Shown here piece after piece: positions 16,937 through 28,342 of a stretch of 61,532 nt of DNA. How positions within the stretch are numbered: the stretch's first letter is position 1; each line of letters opens with the position of its first letter. A program made the position numbers and the translations under genes. The notes beneath the pieces are model-generated. The model did not search any database. It was not told the origin of the DNA and saw only the letters and a program-made list of their open reading frames with translations. Origin of the DNA: Thermoleophilaceae bacterium (GTDB lineage: Bacteria > Actinomycetota > Thermoleophilia > Solirubrobacterales > Thermoleophilaceae); assembly GCA_025937135.1 (NCBI GenBank), contig JAICRZ010000001.1, positions 1 through 61,532 on the forward strand, given 5' to 3'.

Positions 16937-18343
16937 CTAGCGCGCCCGGAACTTCACCGACGGCGAGGCCGCCGCTCCACCGCACCCGGAGCGCACCCGG
17001 GCGACCGCCCGGTAGGTGCCCCGGCGCAGCCGCACCGTCCGCGAGAAGCGGCCGTTGGCGCGAGCCCGGATGTGCAGCCTGCGCGTGTGCGCCCAGCGGC
17101 CGCCGCGCTTTCGGTGGCGCAGCGCCACCGCCACCTGGCCGGCGCAGCCCGGCCGGATCGCACCCCAGACCTTGGCGCGCGCTGCGCGGCGCGCCCTGAC
17201 GTGGACCCTGACGCGGCGCTTCACGCCGGCCGGCACGGCCGTGCCTTCCGGGGCGGGGCGCGCCGGCGGCGCGGGGGCAGGAGCCGGCGGCGCGGTGTAC
17301 GGGCCGGTGTTCCAGGCCCGCAGCGTGTCCTCGGCCGGCTTGCCGCGCACGCTGAACTCGCCGTCGGAGGGGTCGTAGCCGCCGGCGGCGCTCCAGTCCC
17401 ACCAGTAGATCCCCCGGAACCACGGCACCCCCGACCACGCGCGGAACGCGGCCTCGTAGGCACGCTGCTGCGCGTCGGCGGACACCGCGCCGTTGGTCCA
17501 CCAGGGAGTCTGCGCCGTGCCGGTGCGGCTCTGGTAGCCGAGCTCGGTGAAGATCACGGGCTTGCCGGTGCGGGCGCTCAGCTTGCCGAGGTCGCTCACG
17601 TAGCCGCGCTGCCACCACGCCGCGGTGAGGTCGTCCACGCTGGGATCGGCGCCCGCGGCGGCCAGCGGCATGTAGGCGTCGACGCCGATGAAGTCGAGGG
17701 CGTCCCAGAAGCCGATGCGGAGGGCGCCGTCGAGCTGGTTGGCGGCGAACGTGAGCCGGCCGCTGAAACGGGCCCGGGCGACGTCGACGATCCGGCGCCA
17801 TTCGGCCGTGTCGGACGACATGCTGGTGAGCTCGGTGCCGACCACGAGCATCGTCGCGCCGCCGCGCGCCGCGAGGTCCGCGTAGTGGTCGATCATCGTC
17901 CGGTAGTCGGTGTACCAGGCGTCGCGGTCCGCGGGGGCGATGTCGCCGCGGAAGCTTCCGTCGAACACGTCGACGTGCGGCTTCACGACCACGTCCATGC
18001 CCAGGGCGCGAGCGGTCGCCATGGCTCGCAGGAGGCCGGCATCACTCGCCGTCTTGGTGGCGTTGGGCTGTACGGAGGAGTCGGTGGAGGTGTTCATCCA
18101 CCAGGTGGGCACGAGCTCGACCGAAGTGGTGCCGGTCGCGCGCAGCGCGGCGAGCGAGGCGTCGCTCGGCGCCTTCTCCCAGTCGTCGTGCCACCACGAG
18201 GCCACGTTCATCCCCCGCTGCCAGTCGGGGGGCAGACCTGCCGCGGAGGCGCCGGCGGCGGGTGCCGCGAGCGCGCAGGCGAAAACCGCCGCAAGGATCG
18301 CGACGAACTTCCGACCGGCCGCCTGGCGGAAGCGGGGAGCCAT
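16937..18343 (-). CDS. exported TIM-barrel glycoside-hydrolase-like protein (paralog 1) with Pro-rich linker and Arg-rich C-terminal domain
   Basis: Signal peptide KFVAILAAVFACALAAPAAGASA. Clan GH-A-like candidate catalytic Glu in VVGTELTSM and IFTELGYQS. Shares KPHVD, TFAAN and WDALD.IG.DAYMPL with ORFs 18467-19519 and 21002-22039. Confidence 0.75.
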   Translation of the reverse strand: MAPRFRQAAGRKFVAILAAVFACALAAPAAGASAAGLPPDWQRGMNVASWWHDDWEKAPSDASLAALRATGTTSVELVPTWWMNTSTDSSVQPNATKTASDAGLLRAMATARALGMDVVVKPHVDVFDGSFRGDIAPADRDAWYTDYRTMIDHYADLAARGGATMLVVGTELTSMSSDTAEWRRIVDVARARFSGRLTFAANQLDGALRIGFWDALDFIGVDAYMPLAAAGADPSVDDLTAAWWQRGYVSDLGKLSARTGKPVIFTELGYQSRTGTAQTPWWTNGAVSADAQQRAYEAAFRAWSGVPWFRGIYWWDWSAAGGYDPSDGEFSVRGKPAEDTLRAWNTGPYTAPPAPAPAPPARPAPEGTAVPAGVKRRVRVHVRARRAARAKVWGAIRPGCAGQVAVALRHRKRGGRWAHTRRLHIRARANGRFSRTVRLRRGTYRAVARVRSGCGGAAASPSVKFRAR

Positions 18344-18466
18344 CCCGCCGGTGTCGTCGCCGGCCGCGGAACGGGACAGCCGGGACCGGCGATCCTGGAC
18401 GCATTTGCGACAGATCCAGCCAAATGGAGGCTGGCGCGGCCGCCGTAACTGGGCTATAGGTAGGCA

Positions 18467-19519
18467 GTGGCCTCAGCGAAGCCAGCCGTGTTTGCAGCAC
18501 TGCTCGCATGCGTCTGCGGCGTGGCCGCGGGGCCCGCGCAGGCCAAGCCGCGGCCGGTGCCGTTCATGCGCGGAGTCACGCTGGGCACGTGGGGCTCCGC
18601 GGGATACGCCCCCGCCGCCACGCGCGCGCAACTGCGCCGGCTGCGGGCCCGCCACGTGGACACCGTGACGCTGCTGGTGTCATGGGGCCAGTCCGGCAAG
18701 ACATCCACCACGGTCGCGCCCAACTCCGGCACCGTCCCCACCCCCGCTCTCGCGACTGCGATTCGCTCTGCCCGCAAGCTCGGCATGAAGGTCGTGCTAC
18801 GCCCCTACGTCGATCCGCTCGACGGCACCTGGCGCGGGTTGATCGAGCCGCGCTCCGTGAACGCCTGGTTCCGGAGCTACGACCGCTTCATCCTCAGCTA
18901 CGCCTCGCTGGCGCGGCGCGAGCACGTGCGCGGCTTCGTCGTGGGCAGCGAGATGTCCTCGCTCGCGCGCTACTCCGCGCAGTGGCGTTCACTGGTGGGC
19001 AAGGTGCGCCACCGCTTCCGCGGCTTCGTCACCTACCAGGCCAACTGGTACCTCGAGCCGGTCGGGATCAACTGGTGGGACGCGGTCGACGCGATCGACG
19101 TGTCGGCCTGGTACGAGCTCACCGACAAACTCAACCCGACCGTATCCGAGCTCGTGCAGAGCTGGACCAGCACGAGCAACGGCCTGGGCGTGAACTGGTT
19201 CGCCCAGGTGCGCGGCCTCCAGCACACCTGGAACCGGCCGGTGATGTTCGGCGAGATCGGCTATCGAGCCTCGGCCGACACCGCGGCCCACCCGTGGGAG
19301 CTCGATAGCCCCTCCGGCGTGCCGGCCAGCGCCGCAGCTCAGCGGCGCGCGTACGAGGCTGCCTTCCGCGTCTGGTACGGCCAGCCGTGGTTCAAGGGCT
19401 TCGACTGGTGGTACGTACCGGCACCCGGCGCGCCGCCGCGCAGCTCGCCGAGCGGCGCACACCAACTGACAGCGGGACTGCTGCGTCTCATCAGCCGGCG
19501 CTACGGGGGGAAGAGATGA
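18467..19519 (+). CDS. exported TIM-barrel glycoside-hydrolase-like protein (paralog 2)
   Basis: GTG start 6 nt after TATAGG. Signal peptide AVFAALLACVCGVAAGPAQA. Motifs VVGSEMSSL, MFGEIGYRAS, WWDAVDAIDVSAWYEL. Confidence 0.75.
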   Translation: MASAKPAVFAALLACVCGVAAGPAQAKPRPVPFMRGVTLGTWGSAGYAPAATRAQLRRLRARHVDTVTLLVSWGQSGKTSTTVAPNSGTVPTPALATAIRSARKLGMKVVLRPYVDPLDGTWRGLIEPRSVNAWFRSYDRFILSYASLARREHVRGFVVGSEMSSLARYSAQWRSLVGKVRHRFRGFVTYQANWYLEPVGINWWDAVDAIDVSAWYELTDKLNPTVSELVQSWTSTSNGLGVNWFAQVRGLQHTWNRPVMFGEIGYRASADTAAHPWELDSPSGVPASAAAQRRAYEAAFRVWYGQPWFKGFDWWYVPAPGAPPRSSPSGAHQLTAGLLRLISRRYGGKR

Positions 19520-20997
19520 CGCTGGACATGGAGTTCCGGGCCGGCGAGGCCACGCCGGGCAATCCGGTCGAGACCGCAATCCTGGGCGGCGGTCCCGCAG
19601 GCCTCACCGCCGCTTACGTCCTGGCCCGCCGCGGCAGGCGCGGCGTGGTCTTCGAGGCCGGCAAGCAGGTGGGCGGCATCGCGCGCACCGAGCGCCGCAA
19701 CGGCTACCGCTTCGACCTGGGCGGGCATCGGTTCTTCACGAAGCTCGCCCCGGTGCAGCGGCTGTGGGAGGAGGTGCTGGGCGAGGAGCTGCTCAAGCGT
19801 CCGCGCCTGTCGCGCATCTTCTTCGACGGCAAGTACCTGAGCTACCCGCTCACGTCGAAGGACGTGGTGTCGCGCCTCGGGATCGTCGAGTCCACCCGCT
19901 GCGCTCTGTCCTACATGTGGGCCCTGCGCAAGCGCGGCGGCAACCCGGAGACGTTCGAGGAGTGGGTCACCTCGCGGTTCGGCGTTCGCCTGTACGAGAC
20001 GTTCTTCCGCACCTACACCGAGAAGGTCTGGGGCATCCCGGGCTCCGAGATCCGCGCGCAGTGGGCCGCCCAGCGGATCAAGGACTTCTCGCTGTTCATG
20101 GCCATGCTCTCGATCCTCAAGCTGCGCCGCCGCACGGTCACGACCCTGATCGAGGAGTTCCACTACCCGCGGCTCGGCCCGGGCCAGATGTGGGAGGCGT
20201 TCGAGGAGCGCGTCGAGGAGGCGCGCATCCCGGTGCTCAAGCGGCACCGCGCCGAGACCCTGCGCCACCGTGACGGCCGCATCACGAGCATCGTCGTGGA
20301 GAGCGACGGCGCCCGCACCGAGCACATCGTCGACGGCGTGCTGTCGAGCATCCCGCTGCGCGAGCTCGTGCTCTCGCTCGAGCCCGCGGCGCCGCCGCAC
20401 GTCACAGCTGCGGCGCGCAAGCTGCAGTACCGCTCGCTCTGCCTGGTAAGCCTGATGACCACCGAGGCGGAGCCCTTCCCCGACAACTGGATCTACCTGC
20501 ACGACCCGGGCGTGCGTGCCGGCCGTGTGCAGAACTTCGGCGCGTGGAGCGAGTCGATGGTCAAGCCCGGCACCACCTGCCTCGGGGTCGAGTACTTCTG
20601 CTTCGAGGGCGACGACATCTGGGAGATGCCGGAGGCGGAGGCCGTCGCGCTGGCACGCGACGAGCTGGCCCGGATCGGGCTCATCGACCCCAGCAAGGTG
20701 TTCGACGGCACCAAGACCTACGTTCCCAAGGCGTACCCGGTCTACGACTCTCCGTACGAGGACGCGGTCGCGGTGCTGCGCGAGTACCTGGCCGGCTTCA
20801 CGAACCTCCAGACGTTCGGCCGCAACGGCCTGCACCGCTACAACAACCAGGACCACTCGATGTGGACGGCCATCCTCGGGACGCTGAACCTGCTCGACGA
20901 CGCGGGCCACGACGTCTGGTCCGTGAACACCGAAGCCGAGTATCACGAGGAGGGCGAGGCCGTCGAGGAGCTCCTCGACCTCCAGCTCGTGAGTTGA
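19516..20997 (+). CDS. NAD(P)/FAD-dependent oxidoreductase (amine-oxidase / UDP-galactopyranose-mutase-like fold)
   Basis: ATG 19516 overlaps the upstream stop (ATGA). It lies in frame inside track ORF 19387-20997. Dinucleotide-binding motif AILGGGPAGLTAAYVLA...VFEAGKQVGG, followed by GGHRFFTK. Confidence 0.8.
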   Translation: MTLDMEFRAGEATPGNPVETAILGGGPAGLTAAYVLARRGRRGVVFEAGKQVGGIARTERRNGYRFDLGGHRFFTKLAPVQRLWEEVLGEELLKRPRLSRIFFDGKYLSYPLTSKDVVSRLGIVESTRCALSYMWALRKRGGNPETFEEWVTSRFGVRLYETFFRTYTEKVWGIPGSEIRAQWAAQRIKDFSLFMAMLSILKLRRRTVTTLIEEFHYPRLGPGQMWEAFEERVEEARIPVLKRHRAETLRHRDGRITSIVVESDGARTEHIVDGVLSSIPLRELVLSLEPAAPPHVTAAARKLQYRSLCLVSLMTTEAEPFPDNWIYLHDPGVRAGRVQNFGAWSESMVKPGTTCLGVEYFCFEGDDIWEMPEAEAVALARDELARIGLIDPSKVFDGTKTYVPKAYPVYDSPYEDAVAVLREYLAGFTNLQTFGRNGLHRYNNQDHSMWTAILGTLNLLDDAGHDVWSVNTEAEYHEEGEAVEELLDLQLVS

Positions 20998-21001
20998 TGC
21001 G

Positions 21002-22039
21002 CTACTGCGGCGGCGCTCCATTCCAGCGCCGCAGAACCCGCTCCGCCGCCCTGCCCCCCGGGTCGAACTCGTCTCCGGACGCGGGCTCGCGGGCGGGCCA
21101 GTCCCACCAGAGGATGCCGCGCACCCACGATTGCCGCGACCAGACGCGGAGGGCCGCCTCGTAGGCGCGGGCCTGGGCCGAGGCGCTGCGGCGCCCGCGT
21201 GGCTGCGCCGGATCGGCCGCGGCGCCTGTCCTGCTGCCGTAGCCGATCTCGGTGAACAGCACGGGCTTGCCGGCTGCCCGGCGGATCGCGTCGATGCTCG
21301 ACACGTAGGGCTGCCAGGCGCGGACGAGCTGCTCGACGGTCGGGTCGGCGGCGGCGGTGCGCAGCGGCATGTAGGCGTCGATCCCGATCGCGTCGAGCGC
21401 GTCCCAGAAGCGGACGGCGCGCGCTCCCTCGTCCCAGTTGGCCGCGAACGTGAGTGTGCCCCTGAAGCGGCTCCGCACCTGCGCGACCAGCGCGCGCCAG
21501 CGGTTCTCATACCGCGTCATGCTGCTCAGCTCGGTTGCCACCACGAACGTCGTCGCACCCCCGCGCTGGGCCAGCGAGGCGTAGTGGAGCACCATCCGCC
21601 CGTAGCTCGCGAACCACGCGGGCACCGAGGCCGGCGCTATCTCTCCGCGGAACACGCCGCTGTCCACATCCACATGGGGCTTGACGATCACCTCGAGACC
21701 GAGCGCGCGAGCGCGCCGCATGGCGACCAACAGGCTCGTGTCGGTGGCGGTTCGCGCCGCGTCGGGCTCCACGCTCGAGGAGCGGGAGTCGCGCATGTAC
21801 CAGTAGGGGTCGAGCGCCACCGCGCGGGTGCCGGTGGCGGCCAGGGCCCTCAGCGACCGCCCCGCCGCGGGGCGGGCGTAGCCGCCCGCGGTGAAGGACG
21901 TGAAGTTCATGCCGCGCACCCAACCGCTCGGCAGCAGCGCGCGCCGCGGCTCGGGCGCCGCCCGGCGGCCCCCGCCGCCGCACCCGGCCACCGCCGCCGC
22001 GACGATCGCCCAGACAGCCAGGGCGCGCATGGCGCTCAC
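21002..22039 (-). CDS. TIM-barrel glycoside-hydrolase-like lipoprotein (paralog 3)
   Basis: Lipobox AAVAGC. Motifs VVATELSSM, LFTEIGYGS, KPHVD, TFAANW, FWDALDAIGIDAYMPL. GTG 22039 or ATG 22030 as start. Confidence 0.75.
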   Translation of the reverse strand: MSAMRALAVWAIVAAAVAGCGGGGRRAAPEPRRALLPSGWVRGMNFTSFTAGGYARPAAGRSLRALAATGTRAVALDPYWYMRDSRSSSVEPDAARTATDTSLLVAMRRARALGLEVIVKPHVDVDSGVFRGEIAPASVPAWFASYGRMVLHYASLAQRGGATTFVVATELSSMTRYENRWRALVAQVRSRFRGTLTFAANWDEGARAVRFWDALDAIGIDAYMPLRTAAADPTVEQLVRAWQPYVSSIDAIRRAAGKPVLFTEIGYGSRTGAAADPAQPRGRRSASAQARAYEAALRVWSRQSWVRGILWWDWPAREPASGDEFDPGGRAAERVLRRWNGAPPQ

Positions 22040-22053
22040 GGGGTGGACGCTCC

Positions 22054-23811
22054 GTGACCGGGGGCGAGACCTGGACGGCCCCGTGGGGCGGTGCGGAGCG
22101 CACGCTCAGCCGCCGGCAGGTGGCGGCCGCCGCGCTCGTGGCGCTGGCCTGCGTGGCGGGCGTGGTGGCATGGGGAGCGGCGACCGTGCTCGCCGTCATC
22201 GTCGGCCTGGCGACGCTGCTGTTCGCGTCCACCACGTATCTGCGCCTGGCATACCTGTTCGCCGGCCGTCGCAGCAGCGGCGAAGGAGCGCTGCTCGCAG
22301 CCGCACCGCTCGGCGCGCCGCTGCCCCGCTACACCGTGATGGCGGCCCTCTACCACGAGGCCGCCGTGGTGCAGGGCCTCCTCGAGTCGCTCGCGCAGCT
22401 GGACTACCCCGCCGACCGGCTCGAGGTGCTGTTGCTGGTGGAGCACGACGACCCGGAGACCGAGGCGGCCTGCCGGGCCCACCTGCGCCCCGGCTGGTCG
22501 GTGGTGGTGGTGCCCCCCGGTGTCCCCCGCACGAAGCCACGCGCCCTCAACCACGGGCTCGGCCACACCACCGGGGAGTTCTTCACGATCTACGACGCGG
22601 AGGACCGGCCCGACGCCGATCAGCTCCTCAAGGCGGTGAGCGAGTTCCGCCGGCTCCCGCAGAGCGTCGCCGCACTCCAGGCGCGCCTCGACTTCTACAA
22701 CTCGCGCCAGAACGCGCTCACGCGCTGGTTCACATGCGACTACGCGACGCACTTCGGCCTGCTGCTGAGCGGGATCGCGCACCATCGCCACCCCCTGCCG
22801 CTCGGAGGCACCTCCACCCACTTCCGCACCGACGTGATCCGCCGCGTGGGCGGGTGGGACGCCTGGAACGTGACCGAGGACTGTGAGCTTGGGATGAGGC
22901 TCGCCGCCGCCGGCTTCGTCTCGCTCCGCCTGGCCTCGGTGACCATGGAGGAGGCCGTGCCGAGGCTCCGGCCCTGGGTGCGCCAGCGCTCGCGCTGGGT
23001 GAAGGGCTACGCCCAGACGGGGTTGCAGATCACGAGGGCGCCGGTACGTTCCGCGCGCGCGATGGGACTGCGCCCCTACCTGTCCGCACTCGGGATCGTG
23101 GCTGCCGCGCCGGTCGCGCTCGTGGCGCAGATCGTGTTCTGGGCAGTGCTCGCGGTCTACGTGGTGCTGCGCGTATCGGGCGCCGACGTCTCGCCGATCG
23201 AGCGCGTCTTCCCCGAGCCCCTGCTCACGCTCGGGATGGTGTCGCTGATCGTCGGGAACTTCGTGGTCCTCGCCGCTCACGTGGCTGAGATCTACCACCT
23301 CCGGCGGCACGACCTCGTGGCATACGCAGTCGCCATGCCCATCTACTGGACGCTCGCGTCGATCGCGGCCTGGCGCGGTGTGCTCCAGCTCCTCTGGAGC
23401 CCGCATTTCTGGGAGAAGACCGAGCACGGCATGGGCGGCGCCGCGGACGTGGGCCACCTGCCGGCGGCGGTCCTGTCGCCGTCGCGCACCGCGCCACCTC
23501 GCGACGGTGGGGCGGTCCTGGAGCTGCTCGTGCGACACGGGCGCACCTACCCCGAGCTGGCCGTGGTGCTGGGCCTGCCGGAGGCCGAGGTGCGGCGCCT
23601 CGCGCTCGAGGCTCTCGACAGGCTCCACGCATTCGGCGACAGCCGCGTCGAGCCGGAGTGGTACGCGCCCCTGGCCGACTACGTCCTCGGTCAGGACGCG
23701 GGCAGCGGCGAGCTGGCCGACCACCTCGAGCGCGCCCCGGACGCGCGCGCATGGGTGGCCTCCGTCAGGCGCGAGCTCGAGCGGAGCTACCGCGCCGGAG
23801 GCGGCGAATGA
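22054..23811 (+). CDS. processive family-2 glycosyltransferase (synthase type) with C-terminal sigma-70 region-4-like / anti-sigma-like module
   Basis: GTG start and two N-terminal TM segments. GT2 synthase motifs YDAEDRP, VTEDCELG and QRSRWVKG (QxxRW), followed by 3-4 TM segments. The C-terminal ~99 aa read LELLVRHGRTYPELAVVLGLPEAEVRRLALEALDRL...LADYVLGQ. Confidence 0.88.
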   Translation: MTGGETWTAPWGGAERTLSRRQVAAAALVALACVAGVVAWGAATVLAVIVGLATLLFASTTYLRLAYLFAGRRSSGEGALLAAAPLGAPLPRYTVMAALYHEAAVVQGLLESLAQLDYPADRLEVLLLVEHDDPETEAACRAHLRPGWSVVVVPPGVPRTKPRALNHGLGHTTGEFFTIYDAEDRPDADQLLKAVSEFRRLPQSVAALQARLDFYNSRQNALTRWFTCDYATHFGLLLSGIAHHRHPLPLGGTSTHFRTDVIRRVGGWDAWNVTEDCELGMRLAAAGFVSLRLASVTMEEAVPRLRPWVRQRSRWVKGYAQTGLQITRAPVRSARAMGLRPYLSALGIVAAAPVALVAQIVFWAVLAVYVVLRVSGADVSPIERVFPEPLLTLGMVSLIVGNFVVLAAHVAEIYHLRRHDLVAYAVAMPIYWTLASIAAWRGVLQLLWSPHFWEKTEHGMGGAADVGHLPAAVLSPSRTAPPRDGGAVLELLVRHGRTYPELAVVLGLPEAEVRRLALEALDRLHAFGDSRVEPEWYAPLADYVLGQDAGSGELADHLERAPDARAWVASVRRELERSYRAGGGE

Positions 23812-25724
23812 CCCCGGAGGCGGTGCGCGACCGGGGCCGGCTCGTGGTCGAGCTGGTGCGCTCGCACGGGCGTTCCTACTCGGAGGTCGCCCGTGTGACC
23901 GGGATGAGCGAGGATGCCGTGCGAGACATGGCGCGCCGGTCGCTCGAGTCCGCCGCGCCGAGCGGCCAGGCATGCCCGGACCCGGAGCTGCGCGGCGCGC
24001 TGGCCGACTACGTACTGGGCCAGAGCACCCCGGTCGAGGAGCAGAGCGCACGCGAGGCGCTGGCTCGGTCGGCCGACGCGCGCCAGTGGGTCGATTCCCT
24101 GCGCGCCCCCGCGCCAGAGGTGGAGGCACGGCAGCCGAGCCGGCGCCGCCGGCTCGCGACACGCATGCGAGCCGCGAGGGTCCACTGGCCACTCTGGGCG
24201 ATGCTCACCGTCGCGCTGGGTGCTCTCGTGGCGACCGCCGTCTTCGTGTCGGACCGCGGCCAGATCCTCGGCTTCGACGACTCGCCGCGGCACGTGATCA
24301 TCTCGCTGCGCACGCTCACCGAGGGCATCCGGCAGCTCGGCACCCACTGGACCCCGCTCTTCCACGTGGTCGAGCTTCCGTTCGTGTGGATCAATCCCCT
24401 CTACCGGACGGGATTGAGCGGCACCGTGGTCTCCGTGCTCGCGTCGCTCGTGACGCTCTTCTGCGTGTACCGCCTGGCCCTGCTGCTGGACGGGCGGCGC
24501 TGGATCGCGACGGCCGCCGCGCTGCTGCTGGTGGCAAGCCCCAACTTCCTGCTGGCCGGCGTGATCCCGATGCAGCCTTCGGTGATCATGGCGTCCACGA
24601 CGGCCGCGGTGTACCTGTTCACCCGCTGGGCCACCCAGGGCCGGCACACCCGGCAGCTCGTGGTGGCGGGCTTCGCCCTCAGCGTCGCCACCTTGTCGCA
24701 CTTCGACGCGTGGCCGCTGCTGCCGCTCGAGATCGGGGCCGCCGCCCTCGTGATCTACATGCACCGGCGCGATCGCACCCACGCGACCGCAACCGGGCTC
24801 GTCCTGCTCGTGTGCGGCGGCTACGGCGTGGCGGTCTTCATCGCGTTGAACGTGCTCGTCTTCGGGCTGCCCACCGCCTTCCTCCACGAGAACGACATCA
24901 AGCTCGGAGGCTCCTCGCCCGGCGGGACGGGGTTCACTCCGCCGCGCGGCGGCGACGGGGTGGCCGCGTACCCGCTCGCGAGCTGGCACGTGGCGGGACC
25001 GGTGCTGGCCGTCGCGGGCCTGATCGGCGTGCTCGTCTTCATCTGGCGCTCCCGACGCTCACCGGCGACGCTCACGGCACTGATCCTCTTCTACCCGCTC
25101 GTCTGGTACACGGCGCAGGCGCTCACGAAGGGCAGCTACATCGTCGCCGGGCACCGCCTCCAGGACTGGACGCACCTGCGCTACGCGATCCCGATCCTGC
25201 CCGCCCTCGCGGTGTTCGCGGCCGTGGGATCGCGCTGGCGAGTGGTGGCCACCGCGCTGGTGGTGGGCGTCGCGGCCGTCTCCACCGTCACCGTCCTCCA
25301 CGGCCAGGTGGCGGGATGGGTGGACATGACGGGCGAGTCGGGCAAGATCGACAGCGTCGGGATGCGCCCCGCGGCGGCCTGGCTCAGAGCGAACATAGGC
25401 GAGGGCCGAGGGCGTGCCTGGATCCCCAATTTCGACCCCGACAACGACCGCTTCGAGCTGCTCACCGGCGTTCCGCCGGACCAGTTCGTCGACACGAACG
25501 CCACCGAGACCTGGCGCCTGCTCAACCGCGAGCCGTGGCTCGTCGACAAGCTGGGCGTGCACTGGATCATCCGCGTCGGCCAGCTCAAGCAGCCGAACTT
25601 CCCGCTGGCGATCCTCGGGACCGGCGCGCGCCGCTGCTGGTACTCGCACCCGAACGCGCGCGCCTCGGTGCAGATCTACACGATCGACTACTCCTGCCCG
25701 CCCGTCCCGCCGCAGTACCGCTGA
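23808..25724 (+). CDS. GT-C fold membrane glycosyltransferase (PMT/ArnT-like) with N-terminal sigma-70 region-4-like / anti-sigma-like module
   Basis: ATG 23808 overlaps the GT2 stop (ATGA). It lies in frame inside track ORF 23658-25724. N-terminus VELVRSHGRSYSEVARVTGMSEDAVRDMARRSLESA...LADYVLGQ. This is followed by ~10 or more TM segments, with an FDD motif right after TM1 and a C-terminal soluble domain. Confidence 0.75.
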   Translation: MTPEAVRDRGRLVVELVRSHGRSYSEVARVTGMSEDAVRDMARRSLESAAPSGQACPDPELRGALADYVLGQSTPVEEQSAREALARSADARQWVDSLRAPAPEVEARQPSRRRRLATRMRAARVHWPLWAMLTVALGALVATAVFVSDRGQILGFDDSPRHVIISLRTLTEGIRQLGTHWTPLFHVVELPFVWINPLYRTGLSGTVVSVLASLVTLFCVYRLALLLDGRRWIATAAALLLVASPNFLLAGVIPMQPSVIMASTTAAVYLFTRWATQGRHTRQLVVAGFALSVATLSHFDAWPLLPLEIGAAALVIYMHRRDRTHATATGLVLLVCGGYGVAVFIALNVLVFGLPTAFLHENDIKLGGSSPGGTGFTPPRGGDGVAAYPLASWHVAGPVLAVAGLIGVLVFIWRSRRSPATLTALILFYPLVWYTAQALTKGSYIVAGHRLQDWTHLRYAIPILPALAVFAAVGSRWRVVATALVVGVAAVSTVTVLHGQVAGWVDMTGESGKIDSVGMRPAAAWLRANIGEGRGRAWIPNFDPDNDRFELLTGVPPDQFVDTNATETWRLLNREPWLVDKLGVHWIIRVGQLKQPNFPLAILGTGARRCWYSHPNARASVQIYTIDYSCPPVPPQYR

Positions 25725-25973: not shown

Positions 25974-27041
25974 CTACTTCAGGAGCGCGGCGCACTTCTG
26001 GATGGCCGCCGTGTCGCTCGGGTTGGCCTTCTCGATGCACTGCGAGTAGGCCTGGAACTGCTTCGAGCTCGGCGACTTGCCGCTGGAGCCGCTGGACCCG
26101 GAGCCGCCCGAGCCCGAGCCCGAGCCGGACCCGGAGCCCGAGGAGCCAGCTCCGCCCAGGCCGCCCAGCGCGCCCTGGAGCTGCGAGAGCGGCTTGGCGT
26201 TCGGCGGCGCGGTCACCGTCTGCTTCTGGCCGACCTTCGTCAGGTCGAGCGAGAAGGTGATGTTGCCGCCCGTCGCGCCCTGGAACTGCGACTTCATGTT
26301 GTCCGGGATCTGGAAGTCGATCGACACGTTGAGGCGACGGAGCGTGTCGTCGTCCTTGCCCACGTAGACGTCGAACTTCGGGTTCTTGACGATGTCCTTG
26401 ACCTGCGAGATCTGCTGCGGCGTGAGCGTCTTGGTGGTGCCTGCCGCTGCGCCGGCCTGATCGATCGTCTTGTTCAGGTCGTTCAGCATCTTCTCGACGT
26501 CGAGACCGGCCTGGACGTGCGTGGTGTTCACGCCGTCGACGTTCTCGTCGCCCTTGTCCTGAGCGTCCGTGATCCAGTTGACGGGGTCGATGCCGAAGTC
26601 CTTCAGCGACTTGCCCTGCGTCTGCGAGCCGAGGCGCTGGTTGAACTGAGCCACCTGCGCCTTGCCGACCTCGTAGTTCGAGCCCTGGAAGCCCACGAAC
26701 ACGTTGTCGCCGGTCGAGGTCAGCGTGCCGGAGAACGACTGGCCGCCGCCGGACACGTTGGTCTGCCAGTTGAAGCTCGGGATCTTCGTCTTCCCGTTCG
26801 ACTGGTACGGGCCGGTGAGCTTGAGCTGAACCGGCTGCGAGAGCTGGGCGACGCCGTCGACCTTCGCCGTGAACTGAAGATTCACGACCGCGCTCTGGAT
26901 CGAGTGGCTGAATGCCTTCTTGACGGTGTCCTTCGCGTCCGAGCTGCTGCCACCGCCGCCGCAACCGGCGAGCAGGGCCAGGAGCCCGAGCACAGCGAGG
27001 AGGGTGACCGCGCGTGGCGGTGTTATGCGGGGGAATCTCAA
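25974..27041 (-). CDS. lipoprotein of unknown function with C-terminal Gly/Ser tract
   Basis: Track ORF 25974-27113. TTG 27041 is preferred (MRFPRITPPRAVTLLAVLGLLALLAGC lipobox) because ATG 27113 leaves only 17 nt to the divergent gene. Contains the GSGSGSGSGSGGSGSSGSSG tract and a C-terminal Cys pair. Confidence 0.7.
   Translation of the reverse strand: MRFPRITPPRAVTLLAVLGLLALLAGCGGGGSSSDAKDTVKKAFSHSIQSAVVNLQFTAKVDGVAQLSQPVQLKLTGPYQSNGKTKIPSFNWQTNVSGGGQSFSGTLTSTGDNVFVGFQGSNYEVGKAQVAQFNQRLGSQTQGKSLKDFGIDPVNWITDAQDKGDENVDGVNTTHVQAGLDVEKMLNDLNKTIDQAGAAAGTTKTLTPQQISQVKDIVKNPKFDVYVGKDDDTLRRLNVSIDFQIPDNMKSQFQGATGGNITFSLDLTKVGQKQTVTAPPNAKPLSQLQGALGGLGGAGSSGSGSGSGSGSGGSGSSGSSGKSPSSKQFQAYSQCIEKANPSDTAAIQKCAALLK
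26082..26156 (-). repeat. coding low-complexity (GAGCCN)n tract encoding a Gly/Ser linker
   Basis: gagccgctggacccggagccgcccgagcccgagcccgagccggacccggagcccgaggagcc. The minus-strand frame gives GSSGSGSGSGSGSGGSGSSGSSG. Confidence 0.8.
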
Positions 27042-27130
27042 GCGAACTTCTCCAAGTCGTGTGTCTGGGGTTCCGTCCGAGCGTACACAGACTTCCTGAG
27101 GCCGCAACCCCATAAGCTGGGAGCGACCAC

Positions 27131-28342
27131 ATGGCGCCTCGCACCATCCTCTACACGGGAAAGGGGGGTGTCGGGAAGACGAGCGTCGCCGCCGCCACAG
27201 CGCGCCGATGCGCCGCGGCCGGCCTGCGCACCGTCGTTCTCTCGACCGACCCGGCCCACAGCCTGTCCGACTCGCTCGAGGCCGAGCTGGGCACGACTCC
27301 GACGCGGGCGGCGGACAACCTCTGGGGCCAGGAGGTGCAGGCCCAGGAGGAGATGGAGCGCCACTGGGAGGCCGTCCAGGACTGGATGGGCGACATGCTC
27401 GCCGAGCGCGGTGTCGACCGCATCACGGCCGAGGAGCTGACCGTCCCGCCCGGCATGGACGAGCTGTTCTCGCTGCTCCAGATCAAGGCCCACCACGAGT
27501 CGGGTGAGTTCGACGCGATCGTCGTCGACTGCGCGCCCACGGGCGAGACGCTGCGGCTGCTGTCGTTCCCGGACGTCGCCGGCTGGTGGATCGAGAAGGT
27601 GTTCCCGATCGAGCGCAAGATGATGGCCGCCGCGCGCCCGTTCGCGCGCGCGATGCTCGACATCTCGCTGCCGCCCGAGAAGGTCTTCGACGACGTGCAG
27701 AAGCTCGTGCGCAACCTCGTCGCGATGAACGGCATCCTGCGCGACCGCCGCAGCACGTCGATCCGGCTCGTGATGAACCCCGACCGGATGGTCATCAAGG
27801 AGTCGATGCGCACCTTCACCTACCTGAACCTCTACGGCTACCTCACCGACGCCGTGGTGGTGAACCGCGTGTTCCCGGCCGACGTGGACGGCGGCTACTT
27901 CGAGGGCTGGCGCGCGGTGCAGCAGGAGCAGATGGAGCTCGTGCGGTCGGCGTTCGCGCCGGTGCCGATCCTGGTGGCGCCCTACTTCGCGGAGGAGGTG
28001 ATCGGCGAGCGCATGCTCGAGCGCCTGGCCGGCGAGCTGTTCGGCGACGGCGACGCCGGCGCGCTGCTGCACGACGACCTCGCGCAGGAGCTCGTGACCG
28101 ACAACGGCACCGCCGTGCTGCGGCTGCCTATCCCGTTCGTGGAAAAGGCCGACATCGGGTTGAAGAAGATCGGCCTGGAGGTCGTGGTCCGGGTCGGTGG
28201 CCAGAAGCGGACTATCATCCTGCCCCCGTCGCTGGCGGCCTACAGGCCGCGCTCGGCGCAATTCGAGGACGGCGCGCTGAGCGTGCGGTTCGAGCGGACT
28301 GACGATGGATCAACAGGAGACGAAGCCGCCACCTCGAGCTGA
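27131..28342 (+). CDS. ArsA/Get3-family ATPase with HSP20-like C-terminal domain
   Basis: Deviant Walker A GKGGVGKTS and signature STDPAHSLSD. The C-terminal beta-rich tail is VLRLPIPFVEKADIGLKKIGLEVVVRVGGQKRTIILP. Confidence 0.88.
   Translation: MAPRTILYTGKGGVGKTSVAAATARRCAAAGLRTVVLSTDPAHSLSDSLEAELGTTPTRAADNLWGQEVQAQEEMERHWEAVQDWMGDMLAERGVDRITAEELTVPPGMDELFSLLQIKAHHESGEFDAIVVDCAPTGETLRLLSFPDVAGWWIEKVFPIERKMMAAARPFARAMLDISLPPEKVFDDVQKLVRNLVAMNGILRDRRSTSIRLVMNPDRMVIKESMRTFTYLNLYGYLTDAVVVNRVFPADVDGGYFEGWRAVQQEQMELVRSAFAPVPILVAPYFAEEVIGERMLERLAGELFGDGDAGALLHDDLAQELVTDNGTAVLRLPIPFVEKADIGLKKIGLEVVVRVGGQKRTIILPPSLAAYRPRSAQFEDGALSVRFERTDDGSTGDEAATSS

What the first reader, a model, noticed from the sequence alone, without database searches (positions are those of the whole stretch)
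23512..24140. Paralogous sigma-70 region-4-like HTH plus anti-sigma-like module on both sides of the junction between two coupled glycosyltransferases
The last ~99 aa of the GT2 synthase and the first ~110 aa of the next gene, a GT-C membrane glycosyltransferase, are clearly the same module. The GT2 copy reads AVLELLVRHGRTYPELAVVLGLPEAEVRRLALEALDRL...PLADYVLGQDAGSGELADHLERAPDARAWVASVRREL. The GT-C copy reads LVVELVRSHGRSYSEVARVTGMSEDAVRDMARRSLESA...ALADYVLGQSTPVEEQSAREALARSADARQWVDSLR. They share HGR[ST]Y.E[LV]A, LADYVLGQ and DAR.WV.S[VL]R. The first half reads like the helix-turn-helix of sigma-70 region 4.2 (the L..RY..G.SY.EIA..LG.....V..R..RA...L pattern). The second half resembles the N-terminal sigma-binding helices of ZAS-type anti-sigma factors (L..Y.DGEL...H-x3-C-x2-C). 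However, the Zn-ligand positions are occupied by Ala/Ser: H-x3-A-x2-A in the GT2 copy and A-x3-S-x2-A in the GT-C copy. The two genes overlap by ATGA (23808-23811). I do not know of a described case where a sigma/anti-sigma-derived module is attached to both enzymes of a polysaccharide synthase pair. It could be a membrane-tethered transcriptional switch, a sequestered sigma fragment, or a repurposed docking interface between the two enzymes.
Basis: partly seen in the sequence, partly recalled or inferred. Interest (0 to 1): 0.75.

Follow-up and report, generated by a model that had tools for sequence, protein, structure and literature searches.

The report
Sigma/anti-sigma-derived domain flanking a split glycosyltransferase
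Two adjacent membrane sugar-polymer enzymes, which are a single fused protein in related bacteria, each carry a copy of a small folded domain descended from a sigma-factor DNA-binding region joined to an anti-sigma region. This domain is common in one group of actinobacteria, and here it seems to be reused as a cytoplasmic protein-interaction or control handle rather than for transcription.

Summary
The last ~100 aa of the GT2 synthase and the first ~100 aa of the GT-C enzyme are paralogues (42% identity, E=6e-17), and the genes overlap by ATGA.

Both copies belong to a large family from Thermoleophilia: 710 clusters at 50% identity. The typical member is [module]–1 TM–RskA_C, an anti-sigma-K-like membrane protein with no sigma gene beside it in the two loci examined.

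- **First half.** It is a genuine Sigma70_r4 relative. 134 of 149 family members hit the Pfam model, and a family HMM built without the window copies hits them at 87–90 bits.
- **Second half.** It matches helices 1–3 of zinc-less class-I anti-sigma domains in exact register. Support is moderate: hhalign P=0.003, and 0 of 300 shuffles reach the real score.
- **Fold.** AlphaFold gives one compact six-helix domain (pLDDT 87.5, pTM 0.76).

New context: orthologous synthases are single-chain GT2–GT-C fusions with an Ala/Pro linker. One split orthologue carries a c-di-GMP-type MshEN domain at the same site. The module also occurs singly on CapC and on another membrane protein whose module-less relatives lie in polysaccharide clusters.

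Most likely it is a domesticated protein-interaction or regulatory module at a gene-fission point. The mechanism is inferred. A one-chain co-fold of the two copies gave pTM 0.54, with no confident interface.

The parts
22054..23811 (+). GT2 cellulose-synthase-like processive glycosyltransferase (585 aa). It has 2 N-terminal and about 4 C-terminal TM segments and a cytoplasmic C-terminal tail.
   Evidence: Pfam Glyco_trans_2_3 at 93 bits and Glyco_tranf_2_3 at 77 bits. PDB sequence hits to 6yv7 and BcsA 4hg6. Hydropathy segments at 20-66, 339-382, 387-416 and 421-439.
23503..23799 (+). C-terminal copy of the module on GT2 (residues 484-582)
   Evidence: HMM built only from canonical family members: 90.0 bits over HMM positions 9-109. 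Six helices in the AlphaFold model.
23506..23625 (+). Sigma-70 region-4-like helix-turn-helix half of the GT2 copy
   Evidence: Pfam Sigma70_r4 at 19.4 bits and r4_2 at 18.0 bits, both sub-threshold. Helices 485-495, 499-506 and 510-524. Family-level Sigma70_r4 membership.
23653..23793 (+). Zinc-less anti-sigma-domain-like three-helix half of the GT2 copy (LADYVLGQ...HLERAPDARAW)
   Evidence: hhalign of the family's second half against solved anti-sigma domains: P=0.003, 0/300 shuffles. Helices 534-544, 552-560 and 562-580.
23808..23811 (+). ATGA stop/start overlap that couples the two genes
   Evidence: Sequence GAATGACC at 23806-23813.
23808..25724 (+). GT-C type polytopic membrane glycosyltransferase (638 aa)
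   Evidence: Pfam PMT_2 at 33.7 bits, above the 26.1 cut-off. Conserved G-x-x-D-x-x-x-H loop after TM1 in the alignment with orthologues.
23808..24110 (+). N-terminal copy of the module on GT-C (residues 1-101). Its Met aligns with the start Met of canonical family proteins.
   Evidence: HMM built only from canonical family members: 87.2 bits. AlphaFold pLDDT 87.5, pTM 0.76. Alignment A2.
23814..23954 (+). Sigma-70 region-4-like half of the GT-C copy
   Evidence: Pfam Sigma70_r4_2 at 22.2 bits and r4 at 21.9 bits, both sub-threshold. Helices 3-20, 24-31 and 35-49. Partial Foldseek match to SigC region 4 (2o8x: prob 0.91, 41 columns, rmsd 0.6, not significant overall).
23991..24104 (+). Zinc-less anti-sigma-domain-like half of the GT-C copy (LADYVLGQ...ALARSADARQW)
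   Evidence: Helices 62-70, 75-87 and 89-99. hhalign register and shuffle control.
24132..24257 (+). Arg-rich stretch (RRRRLATRMRAAR) followed by the first TM helix of GT-C. Together they place the module in the cytoplasm.
   Evidence: Sequence and hydropathy. W127 and L140 in the TM1 region are invariant among orthologues.

Best explanation
What it is. Each copy is a ~100-aa cytoplasmic six-helix domain. A sigma-70 region-4 helix-turn-helix is fused in one chain to helices 1-3 of a zinc-less class-I anti-sigma domain. These are the helices that grip region 4 in real sigma/anti-sigma complexes. The domain is native to a large Thermoleophilia family whose usual form is module, one TM helix, then an RskA_C ectodomain. 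That form lacks sigma region 2, and in the two canonical loci examined it has no sigma gene next to it.

How it got here. In this lineage the domain was inserted into, and duplicated within, the cytoplasmic linker of a GT2-GT-C polysaccharide synthase that is normally single-chain. A stop/start (ATGA) between the two copies split the enzyme into two translationally coupled genes.

How it most likely works (inferred, not shown). The domain no longer acts in transcription. It acts as a protein-protein interaction handle. The two paralogous copies associate with each other and/or with the same module-binding partner, for example the genome's own module-RskA_C sensor protein. This would keep the polymerising GT2 and the extracytoplasmic GT-C together and under common control. 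The site is the same cytoplasmic position where related synthases carry either a covalent linker or an allosteric MshEN/PilZ-type domain.
For: - **Paralogy.** E=6e-17 between the two copies. They are sister branches in a neighbour-joining tree.
- **Family membership.** 87-90 bits against an HMM built without the window copies.
- **Family size and architecture.** 710 clusters at 50% identity reach E<=1e-3. Sigma70_r4 hits 134/149 members and RskA_C 51/149. Most full-length members have one TM helix after the module.
- **Anti-sigma half.** hhalign P=0.003, 0/300 shuffles.
- **Fold.** A single compact fold, pLDDT 87.5 and pTM 0.76. Both copies show the same six helices.
- **Fused orthologues.** P0002, P0003, P0007, P0008 and locus L005 have an Ala/Pro-rich linker exactly where the modules sit.
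- **Split orthologue.** L006 has an MshEN domain on the GT2 tail at the same site. MshEN and PilZ tails are the known allosteric inputs of such synthases (PMC8669469, PMC5013675).
- **Cytoplasmic location.** This follows from the fused topology, the Arg-rich stretch before TM1 and the four hydrophobic segments after the GT2 domain.
- **No local sigma.** No sigma gene lies in the roughly 20 kb of flanking sequence covered by the annotated sister locus, or next to canonical family genes.
- **Charge.** The region-4 half is not basic (family median net charge -2).
- **Other acquisitions.** The module occurs on other envelope-polymer membrane proteins: CapC (P0088), and P0056, whose module-less relatives sit in polysaccharide clusters.
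Against: - No interaction has been shown. Folding the two copies as one chain gave good domains (pLDDT 81) but pTM of only 0.54, so there is no confident inter-module interface. The alignment covered only one half, so this is a weak test.
- The split orthologue L006 manages without any paired domain, so a tether is not obligatory.
- On CapC, no second copy was found on the short (2 kb) contig. For P0056 no contig DNA could be read, so a second copy there was not tested. A cis-encoded pair is therefore not shown to be the general rule.
- The window arrangement is known only from two near-identical MAGs. The two copies sit on long branches, which is also compatible with relaxed constraint.
- The anti-sigma homology of the second half rests on a shallow profile of four solved structures.
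Confidence: 0.45

Rival explanations
1. Allosteric or regulatory input domain. The module on the GT2 tail plays the role that PilZ plays in BcsA or MshEN plays in NfrB and the L006 orthologue. It would bind a small ligand or a soluble regulator and gate the synthase. The GT-C copy would be a duplicate sensing the same input. No module-module contact is needed.
For: - It sits at the same cytoplasmic post-TM position as MshEN in the split orthologue L006.
- C-terminal c-di-GMP domains of GT2 synthases are well documented (PMC8669469, PMC5013675, PMC5567048).
- No second copy was found with the CapC example, and module-less relatives of P0056 are the rule.
- The co-fold shows no confident interface.
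- The canonical context is a signalling (anti-sigma-like) protein.
Against: - No ligand-binding motif or partner has been identified.
- Conserved residues are mostly core hydrophobics plus a D/R/W set.
- It does not explain why both halves of the split enzyme keep a copy.
Confidence: 0.25
2. Neutral relic of the fission event. The 5' end of a canonical module gene recombined into the linker and was tandemly duplicated, splitting the gene. The modules would persist only as folded spacers with no specific function.
For: - The arrangement is found only in two near-identical MAGs among about 15 billion proteins.
- Fused and module-less orthologues work without it.
- The two copies have long branches.
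- The Met of the GT-C copy aligns with the canonical start Met, as expected for a grafted 5' gene end.
Against: - Both copies retain every family-invariant position.
- Both score 87-90 bits against the canonical HMM over its full length.
- Both are predicted to be well folded.
- At 42% identity the duplication is old, so both copies have been maintained for a long time.
Confidence: 0.17
3. Genuine sigma/anti-sigma function. The modules would sequester an ECF sigma factor or RNA polymerase at the synthase. Alternatively they would be released by proteolysis to act as a region-4-type transcription factor. Either way this is a membrane-tethered transcriptional switch linking polymer synthesis to gene expression.
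For: - Homology to Sigma70_r4 and to class-I anti-sigma domains.
- Canonical relatives have the classic anti-sigma layout with RskA_C.
- Sigma factors fused to ZAS-TM extensions exist in Actinobacteria (ECF48/52/53, IutY; PMC8999054).
Against: - There is no region 2 anywhere in the family.
- No sigma gene lies beside canonical genes or within the annotated flanks of this locus.
- The anti-sigma helix 4 that binds region 2 was not identified.
- The region-4 half is neutral to acidic.
- The predicted intramolecular packing (pTM 0.76) would occupy the anti-sigma surface.
- Proteolytic release from a polytopic enzyme is implausible.
Confidence: 0.08
4. Artefact. The two genes would really be one, with a sequencing frameshift at the junction or a chimeric assembly.
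For: A one-base shift at 23808-23811 would read through to give GT2-module-module-GT-C. Fused orthologues exist.
Against: An identical junction is present in an independently assembled sister MAG that differs by 39 positions over 21.9 kb. Both are short-read assemblies. The Met of the GT-C copy aligns with the canonical start. Another orthologue, L006, is also split with a 4-nt overlap.
Confidence: 0.03

Closest known systems
RskA, the anti-sigma-K factor of Mycobacterium tuberculosis (class-I anti-sigma domain, zinc-independent; PDB 4NQW), and RskA_C proteins in general
   Same: Canonical relatives of the module share the layout of a cytoplasmic N-terminal helical domain, one TM helix and an RskA_C ectodomain. 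The second half of the module aligns in register with class-I anti-sigma helices 1-3 and lacks the zinc ligands, as does RskA (PMC7406223).
   Different: A sigma region-4 domain is fused in front of the anti-sigma-like helices. No cognate sigma gene is adjacent. In the window the module sits on glycosyltransferases, with no RskA_C domain.
RslA (PDB 3HUG chain B) and other ZAS anti-sigma domains (RsiW 5WUQ, ChrR 2Q1Z, DdvA 8RLZ)
   Same: The motif and its spacing are shared: AAYVLGAL-x9-HL-x2-C-x2-CR in RslA against LADYVLGQ-x9-HL-x2-S-x2-AR in the family.
   Different: The Cys ligands are replaced by Ser/Ala. In the GT-C copy the His is also replaced. The Pfam zf-HC2 model does not detect it.
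ECF sigma factors fused to their anti-sigma (ECF48/52/53 such as SCO4117; IutY)
   Same: The order region 4, then ZAS-like segment, then TM helix, then extracytoplasmic domain, all in one polypeptide (PMC8999054, PMC5826349). This is a plausible evolutionary source.
   Different: Those proteins keep region 2 and are true sigma factors. This family has none, and the canonical proteins start directly at region 4.
PhyR sigma-like domain (sigma-factor mimicry in the general stress response)
   Same: A sigma-derived domain is used as a protein-binding decoy rather than for transcription. It pairs with an anti-sigma element (own knowledge; also mentioned in PMC7826278).
   Different: PhyR mimics regions 2 and 4 and binds NepR in trans under phosphorylation control. 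Here region 4 and the anti-sigma-like helices are in cis. Foldseek similarity to PhyR is not significant.
C-terminal regulatory domains of cellulose-synthase-like GT2 enzymes (PilZ of BcsA, MshEN of NfrB, C-terminus of BgsA)
   Same: The same cytoplasmic position after the last TM helix of the GT2. The orthologue in L006 carries MshEN there (PMC8669469, PMC5013675, PMC5567048).
   Different: The fold is unrelated. No nucleotide-binding motif is present. A second copy sits on the partner enzyme.
Docking domains of split multienzymes (e.g. PKS/NRPS C- and N-terminal docking pairs)
   Same: A C-terminal element on the upstream protein is matched by an N-terminal element on the downstream protein. 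The site is covalently continuous in relatives.
   Different: Here the two elements are paralogues of a ~100-aa folded signalling domain. Their interaction has not been demonstrated.

Membership tests
Sigma-70 region 4 (Pfam PF04545 / PF08281) | Profile score above the curated gathering threshold | tested here: inconclusive
   The window copies score 16-22 bits, below the cut-offs of 24.1 and 25.7. Relatives in the same module family pass: P0012 at 40.2 bits and P0014 at 37.8 bits. 134 of 149 hit at E<=0.01. The window copies match the canonical family HMM at 87-90 bits. Homology is therefore supported transitively, not directly.
Sigma-70 region 4 (Pfam PF04545 / PF08281) | Helix-turn-helix three/four-helix fold of region 4 | tested here: inconclusive
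   AlphaFold gives three helices (3-20, 24-31, 35-49). Foldseek finds only partial, non-significant matches to region-4 structures: SigC 2o8x (prob 0.91, 41 columns), SigE 2h27 and SigR 5fgm, all with E>1. PDB sequence hits are weak but almost all to sigma region 4.
Sigma factor (functional sigma-70/ECF protein) | Presence of region 2 (core binding and -10 recognition) in the same protein | tested here: not met
   No Sigma70_r2 hit in the window proteins or in any of the 149 relatives. Canonical proteins start at region 4, with a divergently oriented gene upstream.
Sigma factor (functional sigma-70/ECF protein) | Binding to -35 DNA and the RNAP beta-flap | not testable with these tools
   Only an indirect hint is available: the region-4 half is neutral to acidic (family median net charge -2; window copies 0 and +1).
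Class-I anti-sigma domain (ASDI / ZAS; Pfam zf-HC2 PF13490) | Profile match to zf-HC2 | tested here: not met
   None of the 149 full-length relatives hits at E<=0.01. Of ten isolated second halves, one gives a marginal hit (E=0.16, 12.5 bits).
Class-I anti-sigma domain (ASDI / ZAS; Pfam zf-HC2 PF13490) | Sequence-profile similarity to solved anti-sigma domains over helices 1-3 | tested here: met
   hhalign of the family's second half (A5) against RslA/RsiW/DdvA/ChrR fragments (A6): score 18.0, P=0.0031, about 40 ungapped columns. 300 column-shuffled controls give mean 7.5, maximum 12.5, and none reaches 18.
Class-I anti-sigma domain (ASDI / ZAS; Pfam zf-HC2 PF13490) | H-x3-C-x2-C zinc motif | tested here: not met
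   The motif reads H-x3-A-x2-A in the GT2 copy, A-x3-S-x2-A in the GT-C copy and H-x3-S-x2-A in the canonical consensus. This does not exclude membership: about 44% of ASDIs, RskA and RseA included, lack the motif (PMC7406223).
Class-I anti-sigma domain (ASDI / ZAS; Pfam zf-HC2 PF13490) | Cognate ECF sigma gene in the neighbourhood, and a fourth helix that binds region 2 | tested here: not met
   No sigma gene lies in the annotated flanks of the locus or next to canonical genes in L002 and L003. Only three helices follow the region-4 half in the models.
RskA-like anti-sigma-K factors | RskA_C (PF10099) extracytoplasmic domain after one TM helix | tested here: not met
   It is absent from both window proteins. 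It is present in 51 of 149 relatives, many of the rest being fragments. The window proteins share only the cytoplasmic module with this family.
Docking-domain pair of a split enzyme | Elements at the C-terminus of the upstream protein and the N-terminus of the downstream protein, at a site that is covalently continuous in orthologues | tested here: met
   Alignment A4 shows that P0002, P0003, P0007 and P0008 have a linker of roughly 20-110 aa, Ala/Pro-rich in the longer cases, between HxWEKTxHG and the first GT-C TM helix, where the window has the two modules. L005 is fused in one frame.
Docking-domain pair of a split enzyme | Direct, specific interaction between the two elements | tested here: inconclusive
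   A single-chain AlphaFold co-fold gave pLDDT 81 and pTM 0.54, with no confident packing.
Docking-domain pair of a split enzyme | Recurrence of the paired arrangement in other module-bearing loci | tested here: not met
   The CapC+module locus L004 has one copy. The 80 loci of P0056 relatives have none. The split orthologue L006 has no pair.
GT2 processive synthase / GT-C transferase (host enzymes) | Curated profile hits for the catalytic domains | tested here: met
   Glyco_trans_2_3 at 93.3 bits and Glyco_tranf_2_3 at 77.5 bits for the GT2. PMT_2 at 33.7 bits, above the 26.1 cut-off, for the GT-C. The QRSRW motif is visible in the sequence.

The most novel reading that the evidence does not exclude
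The module is a self-contained sigma-4/anti-sigma 'handshake'. It can open and swap partners: region 4 of one copy would bind the anti-sigma helices of another. This would give Thermoleophilia a reversible coupling device that joins GT2 to GT-C and ties several envelope-polymer machines (GT2/GT-C synthase, CapC, the P0056-type protein) to the extracytoplasmic RskA_C sensor protein carrying the same module. It would be a post-translational control network built from recycled transcription-factor parts.
Probability: 0.12. Interest if true: 0.8.

Novelty: new variant of a known kind. Interest (0 to 1): 0.58.

Why it matters
Sigma region 4 and class-I anti-sigma domains are known almost only as partners in transcription control. 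Here they occur fused in one ~100-aa domain without region 2. The domain is conserved in hundreds of Thermoleophilia protein clusters and has been grafted onto enzymes that build envelope polymers.

If the module mediates protein-protein contacts, it would be a clear case of a transcription-factor complex domesticated as a structural or regulatory adaptor. It would also give a natural experiment on how a fused two-domain synthase survives gene fission.

It also flags an unnamed, abundant family (region 4 - anti-sigma-like - TM - RskA_C). Automated annotation currently labels it a 'sigma factor-like HTH DNA-binding protein', which is probably misleading. The family likely exists in cultured relatives, so its function may be testable.

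Tried and rejected
1. A word-indexed homologue search with the GT-C module alone found nothing. The exhaustive HMMER search was needed.
2. An exact look-up of the window GT-C protein failed because the sister MAG differs by two residues. P0001 was used instead.
3. Pfam zf-HC2/RskA-type profiles on the second half gave essentially no signal. A PDB sequence search with the second-half profile returned only noise.
4. Foldseek of the module model against the PDB gave no hit with E<1. Small helical domains and two-chain sigma/anti-sigma complexes are poorly suited to this test.
The substitute, with a one-sided alignment, gave an inconclusive pTM of 0.54.
6. I looked for a second module next to CapC+module (L004), and for modules among 80 loci of P0056 relatives. 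None was found. P0056's own contig DNA was not retrievable.
7. I looked for extra copies in the window and for a nearby sigma gene. None was found.
8. Apparent second module stretches in P0025, P0076, P0081, P0084 and P0089 are noise (i-E>2). The N-terminal extensions of P0042 and P0150 look like mis-called starts.
9. An assembly artefact was considered and rejected.

Full report
**Observation.** The window encodes a 585-aa GT2 (22054-23811, +) and a 638-aa GT-C-type membrane protein (23808-25724, +). Their reading frames overlap by ATGA. Pfam assigns the first to the cellulose-synthase-like Glyco_trans_2_3/Glyco_tranf_2_3 families. It assigns the second to PMT_2, above the gathering threshold. 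BLASTP of the GT2 tail against the GT-C head gives 42% identity over 90 residues, E=6e-17. An independently assembled sister MAG (NCBI GCA_025928315.1, contig JAICJS010000004.1) is 99.8% identical over 21.9 kb and has an identical junction. The repeat is therefore real and is not an assembly artefact. A six-frame scan finds no further copy in the window.

**What the module is.** The module alone found nothing in the word-indexed search. An exhaustive HMMER search of 1.84 billion cluster representatives, using a profile of the two copies, found 710 proteins at E<=1e-3 and 154 at E<=1e-10. Nearly all are 200-400-aa proteins with the module at the extreme N-terminus (MATFDQLSAEQRAIIELVL...). It is followed by a charged stretch, one TM helix and an ectodomain. 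Where sources name an organism, the names are Thermoleophilaceae or Solirubrobacterales MAGs. NCBI calls the protein 'sigma factor-like helix-turn-helix DNA-binding protein'.

A Pfam census of the 149 best hits gives:
- Sigma70_r4 in 134 proteins;
- Sigma70_r4_2 in 123 proteins;
- RskA_C in 51 proteins, many of the remainder being fragments or frameshifted long-read gene calls;
- zf-HC2 in none.

Canonical members pass the curated Sigma70_r4 thresholds, for example at 40.2 and 37.8 bits. The window copies alone are sub-threshold at 16-22 bits. An HMM built only from canonical members nevertheless hits the GT2 copy at 90.0 bits and the GT-C copy at 87.2 bits over the full module length. The first half is therefore a diverged but genuine region-4 relative.

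**The second half.** Pfam and PDB sequence searches with the second half alone are essentially silent. I retrieved four solved class-I anti-sigma domains from the PDB: RslA 3HUG_B, RsiW 5WUQ_C, DdvA 8RLZ_A and ChrR 2Q1Z_B. I aligned them (A6) and compared them profile-to-profile with the family's second half (A5). The score is 18.0 and P=0.0031. In 300 column-shuffled controls the mean is 7.5 and the maximum 12.5, and none reaches 18. The template profile is shallow, so I rate this as moderate support. The usual C-terminal partner of the module is the anti-sigma-K ectodomain RskA_C, which adds context. Missing zinc ligands do not argue against membership. About 44% of class-I anti-sigma domains lack the motif, RskA included. 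Helices 1-3 form the bundle whose helix 1 contacts region 4, and a separate helix 4 contacts region 2 (PMC7406223).

**Structure.** AlphaFold2 on the GT-C copy with a 25-sequence family alignment gives pLDDT 87.5 and pTM 0.76. The model has six helices, three for the region-4 half and three for the anti-sigma-like half, joined by a confidently placed loop. This suggests one compact domain in which the two halves pack on each other. Foldseek against the PDB has no hit with E<1. The partial matches are mostly HTH DNA-binding domains, among them region-4 and LuxR-type ones. PDB sequence hits with the family profile are weak but almost all are to sigma region 4.

**No sigma context.** Canonical genes lie between a 4HBT thioesterase and an FAD-oxidase gene, with NAD synthase nearby, and have no sigma gene beside them (L002, L003). 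The proteins begin at region 4 and have no region 2. No sigma gene is called in the annotated sister locus, which covers about 8 kb upstream of the GT2 and 10 kb downstream of the GT-C. The region-4 half is neutral to acidic: the family median net charge is -2, and the window copies are 0 and +1. That is not what I would expect of a DNA-binding region 4, but this is an inference. Actinobacterial ECF48/52/53 proteins and IutY are sigma factors fused to a ZAS-like segment and TM helices (PMC8999054, PMC5826349). Loss of region 2 from such a fusion is a plausible origin for the family, though this is also inference.

**The host enzymes and the junction.** A search with the whole GT-C protein returned only ten relatives. 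Four (P0002, P0003, P0007, P0008; about 1000-1045 aa) are single-chain GT2-GT-C fusions. P0005 is a fusion with a different GT2. In the alignment, the conserved GT2 ends at HxWEKTxHG and the conserved GT-C begins at its first TM helix (W127). Between them the fusions have a short or long linker, Ala/Pro-rich in P0002 and P0003. That is exactly where the window has module, stop/start, module. The window enzyme is therefore a fission product with one module copy on each side of the break.

A scan of one genome per species found only three orthologous loci:
- **L005** is fused in one frame.
- **L007** is frameshift-ridden.
- **L006** is also split with a 4-nt overlap but has no module. Its GT2 has a long acidic/Pro-rich tail ending in an MshEN domain (37.5 bits, above the 23.1 cut-off).

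MshEN and PilZ-type tails are the established c-di-GMP inputs of cellulose-synthase-like GT2 enzymes (PMC5013675, PMC8669469, PMC5567048). The junction is thus a cytoplasmic site where this synthase family accumulates accessory domains. A cytoplasmic location for both modules follows from three things: the fused topology, the Arg-rich stretch before GT-C TM1, and four hydrophobic segments after the GT2 catalytic domain. This too is an inference.

**Other hosts of the module.**
- P0088 is a CapC (poly-gamma-glutamate synthesis) membrane protein with the module at its C-terminus. Its 2-kb contig holds one copy.
- P0056 is the module followed by a 10-TM protein. Its contig DNA could not be read. 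Eighty metagenomic relatives of that membrane domain all lack the module. In L041 the relative sits after a 905-aa double GT2 and a Wzx-like gene.
- P0138 is the module plus TPR repeats.

The module has therefore been captured several times, mostly by envelope-polymer membrane proteins. In the CapC case no second copy was found. In a neighbour-joining tree the two window copies are sisters on long branches. They are 39-45% identical to each other and 35-43% to canonical members. This fits one acquisition followed by an old duplication.

**Mechanism.** Three points are shown. The module is a folded domain derived from region 4 plus an anti-sigma-like segment. It belongs to a large family. It marks the fission point of a synthase that is usually fused. 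Function is inferred.

I favour (0.45) a domesticated protein-interaction handle. The copies would associate with each other and/or with a common module-binding partner such as the canonical RskA_C protein. That would hold the two enzymes together and place them under common control. The direct test I could run was weak. A one-chain co-fold with one-sided alignment coverage gave two well-folded six-helix domains (pLDDT 81) but pTM 0.54, so there is no confident interface.

The rivals are:
- a PilZ/MshEN-like allosteric input (0.25);
- a neutral relic of the insertion that split the gene (0.17);
- a true sigma-sequestering or transcriptional switch (0.08);
- an artefact (0.03).

**Comparison with known systems and novelty.** The closest described systems are:
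- RskA/RslA-type class-I anti-sigma factors;
- sigma/anti-sigma fusion proteins (ECF48/52/53, IutY);
- the sigma-mimic domain of PhyR;
- the C-terminal regulatory domains of GT2 synthases.

None combines region 4 without region 2, fused in cis to anti-sigma helices. I found no paper describing such a module on glycosyltransferases. I rate it a new variant of known kinds rather than categorically new. Interest is moderate to high for sigma-factor and exopolysaccharide specialists. It is tempered because the glycosyltransferase arrangement is known from only two near-identical MAGs and the mechanism is untested.

Noticed in passing
window 16937-22039: Directly upstream of the GT2 lie three GH113-like TIM-barrel genes (16937-18343 -, 18467-19519 +, 21002-22039 -) and a PRK07208-type flavin amine-oxidase-like gene (about 19515-20997 +). 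Together with the GT2/GT-C pair this looks like an exopolysaccharide (possibly beta-mannan-type) locus.
   Followed up: partly
L006 3089-7455 (Thermoleophilaceae MAG DATMJO010000027.1): The orthologous synthase is also split with a 4-nt overlap. Its 902-aa GT2 ends in an MshEN (c-di-GMP-receptor-type) domain after a long acidic/Pro-rich tail. This suggests c-di-GMP control of this synthase family in some lineages.
   Followed up: partly
L005 4462-7455; proteins P0002, P0003, P0007, P0008: These are single-chain GT2-GT-C fusion synthases of about 1000 aa. P0002 and P0003 have an Ala/Pro-rich linker. I could not find this rare architecture described, and only about 10 relatives exist in 5.8 billion protein clusters.
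   Followed up: partly
L004 208-1350 (protein P0088): A CapC (poly-gamma-glutamate synthesis) membrane protein with the same region-4/anti-sigma-like module at its C-terminus. The short contig holds a single copy.
   Followed up: partly
protein P0056; loci L008-L087; L041 1569-7833: P0056 is the module followed by a 10-TM protein with no Pfam match. Its module-less relatives are abundant in soil metagenomes. In L041 the relative follows a 905-aa double-GT2 gene and a Wzx-like gene, so this is an uncharacterised membrane component of polysaccharide clusters.
   Followed up: partly
L002 6001-6982; L003 6001-7054: The canonical module-TM-RskA_C gene has conserved neighbours: NAD synthase, a 4HBT thioesterase and an FAD-linked oxidase. 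No sigma gene is adjacent. In these long-read assemblies the gene is broken into two or three calls by frameshifts, which explains many of the 'short' family members in databases.
   Followed up: partly
window 25974-27113 (-) and 27131-28342 (+): Downstream of the GT-C lie a 379-aa ORF with a lipoprotein-like N-terminus and a (GS)n tract, and an ArsA-type ATPase with an HSP20-like domain. No link to the module is evident.
   Followed up: no
protein P0138: The module is fused to a large TPR-repeat protein (654 aa, no TM helix). This soluble architecture may point to a protein-scaffold role for the module.
   Followed up: no
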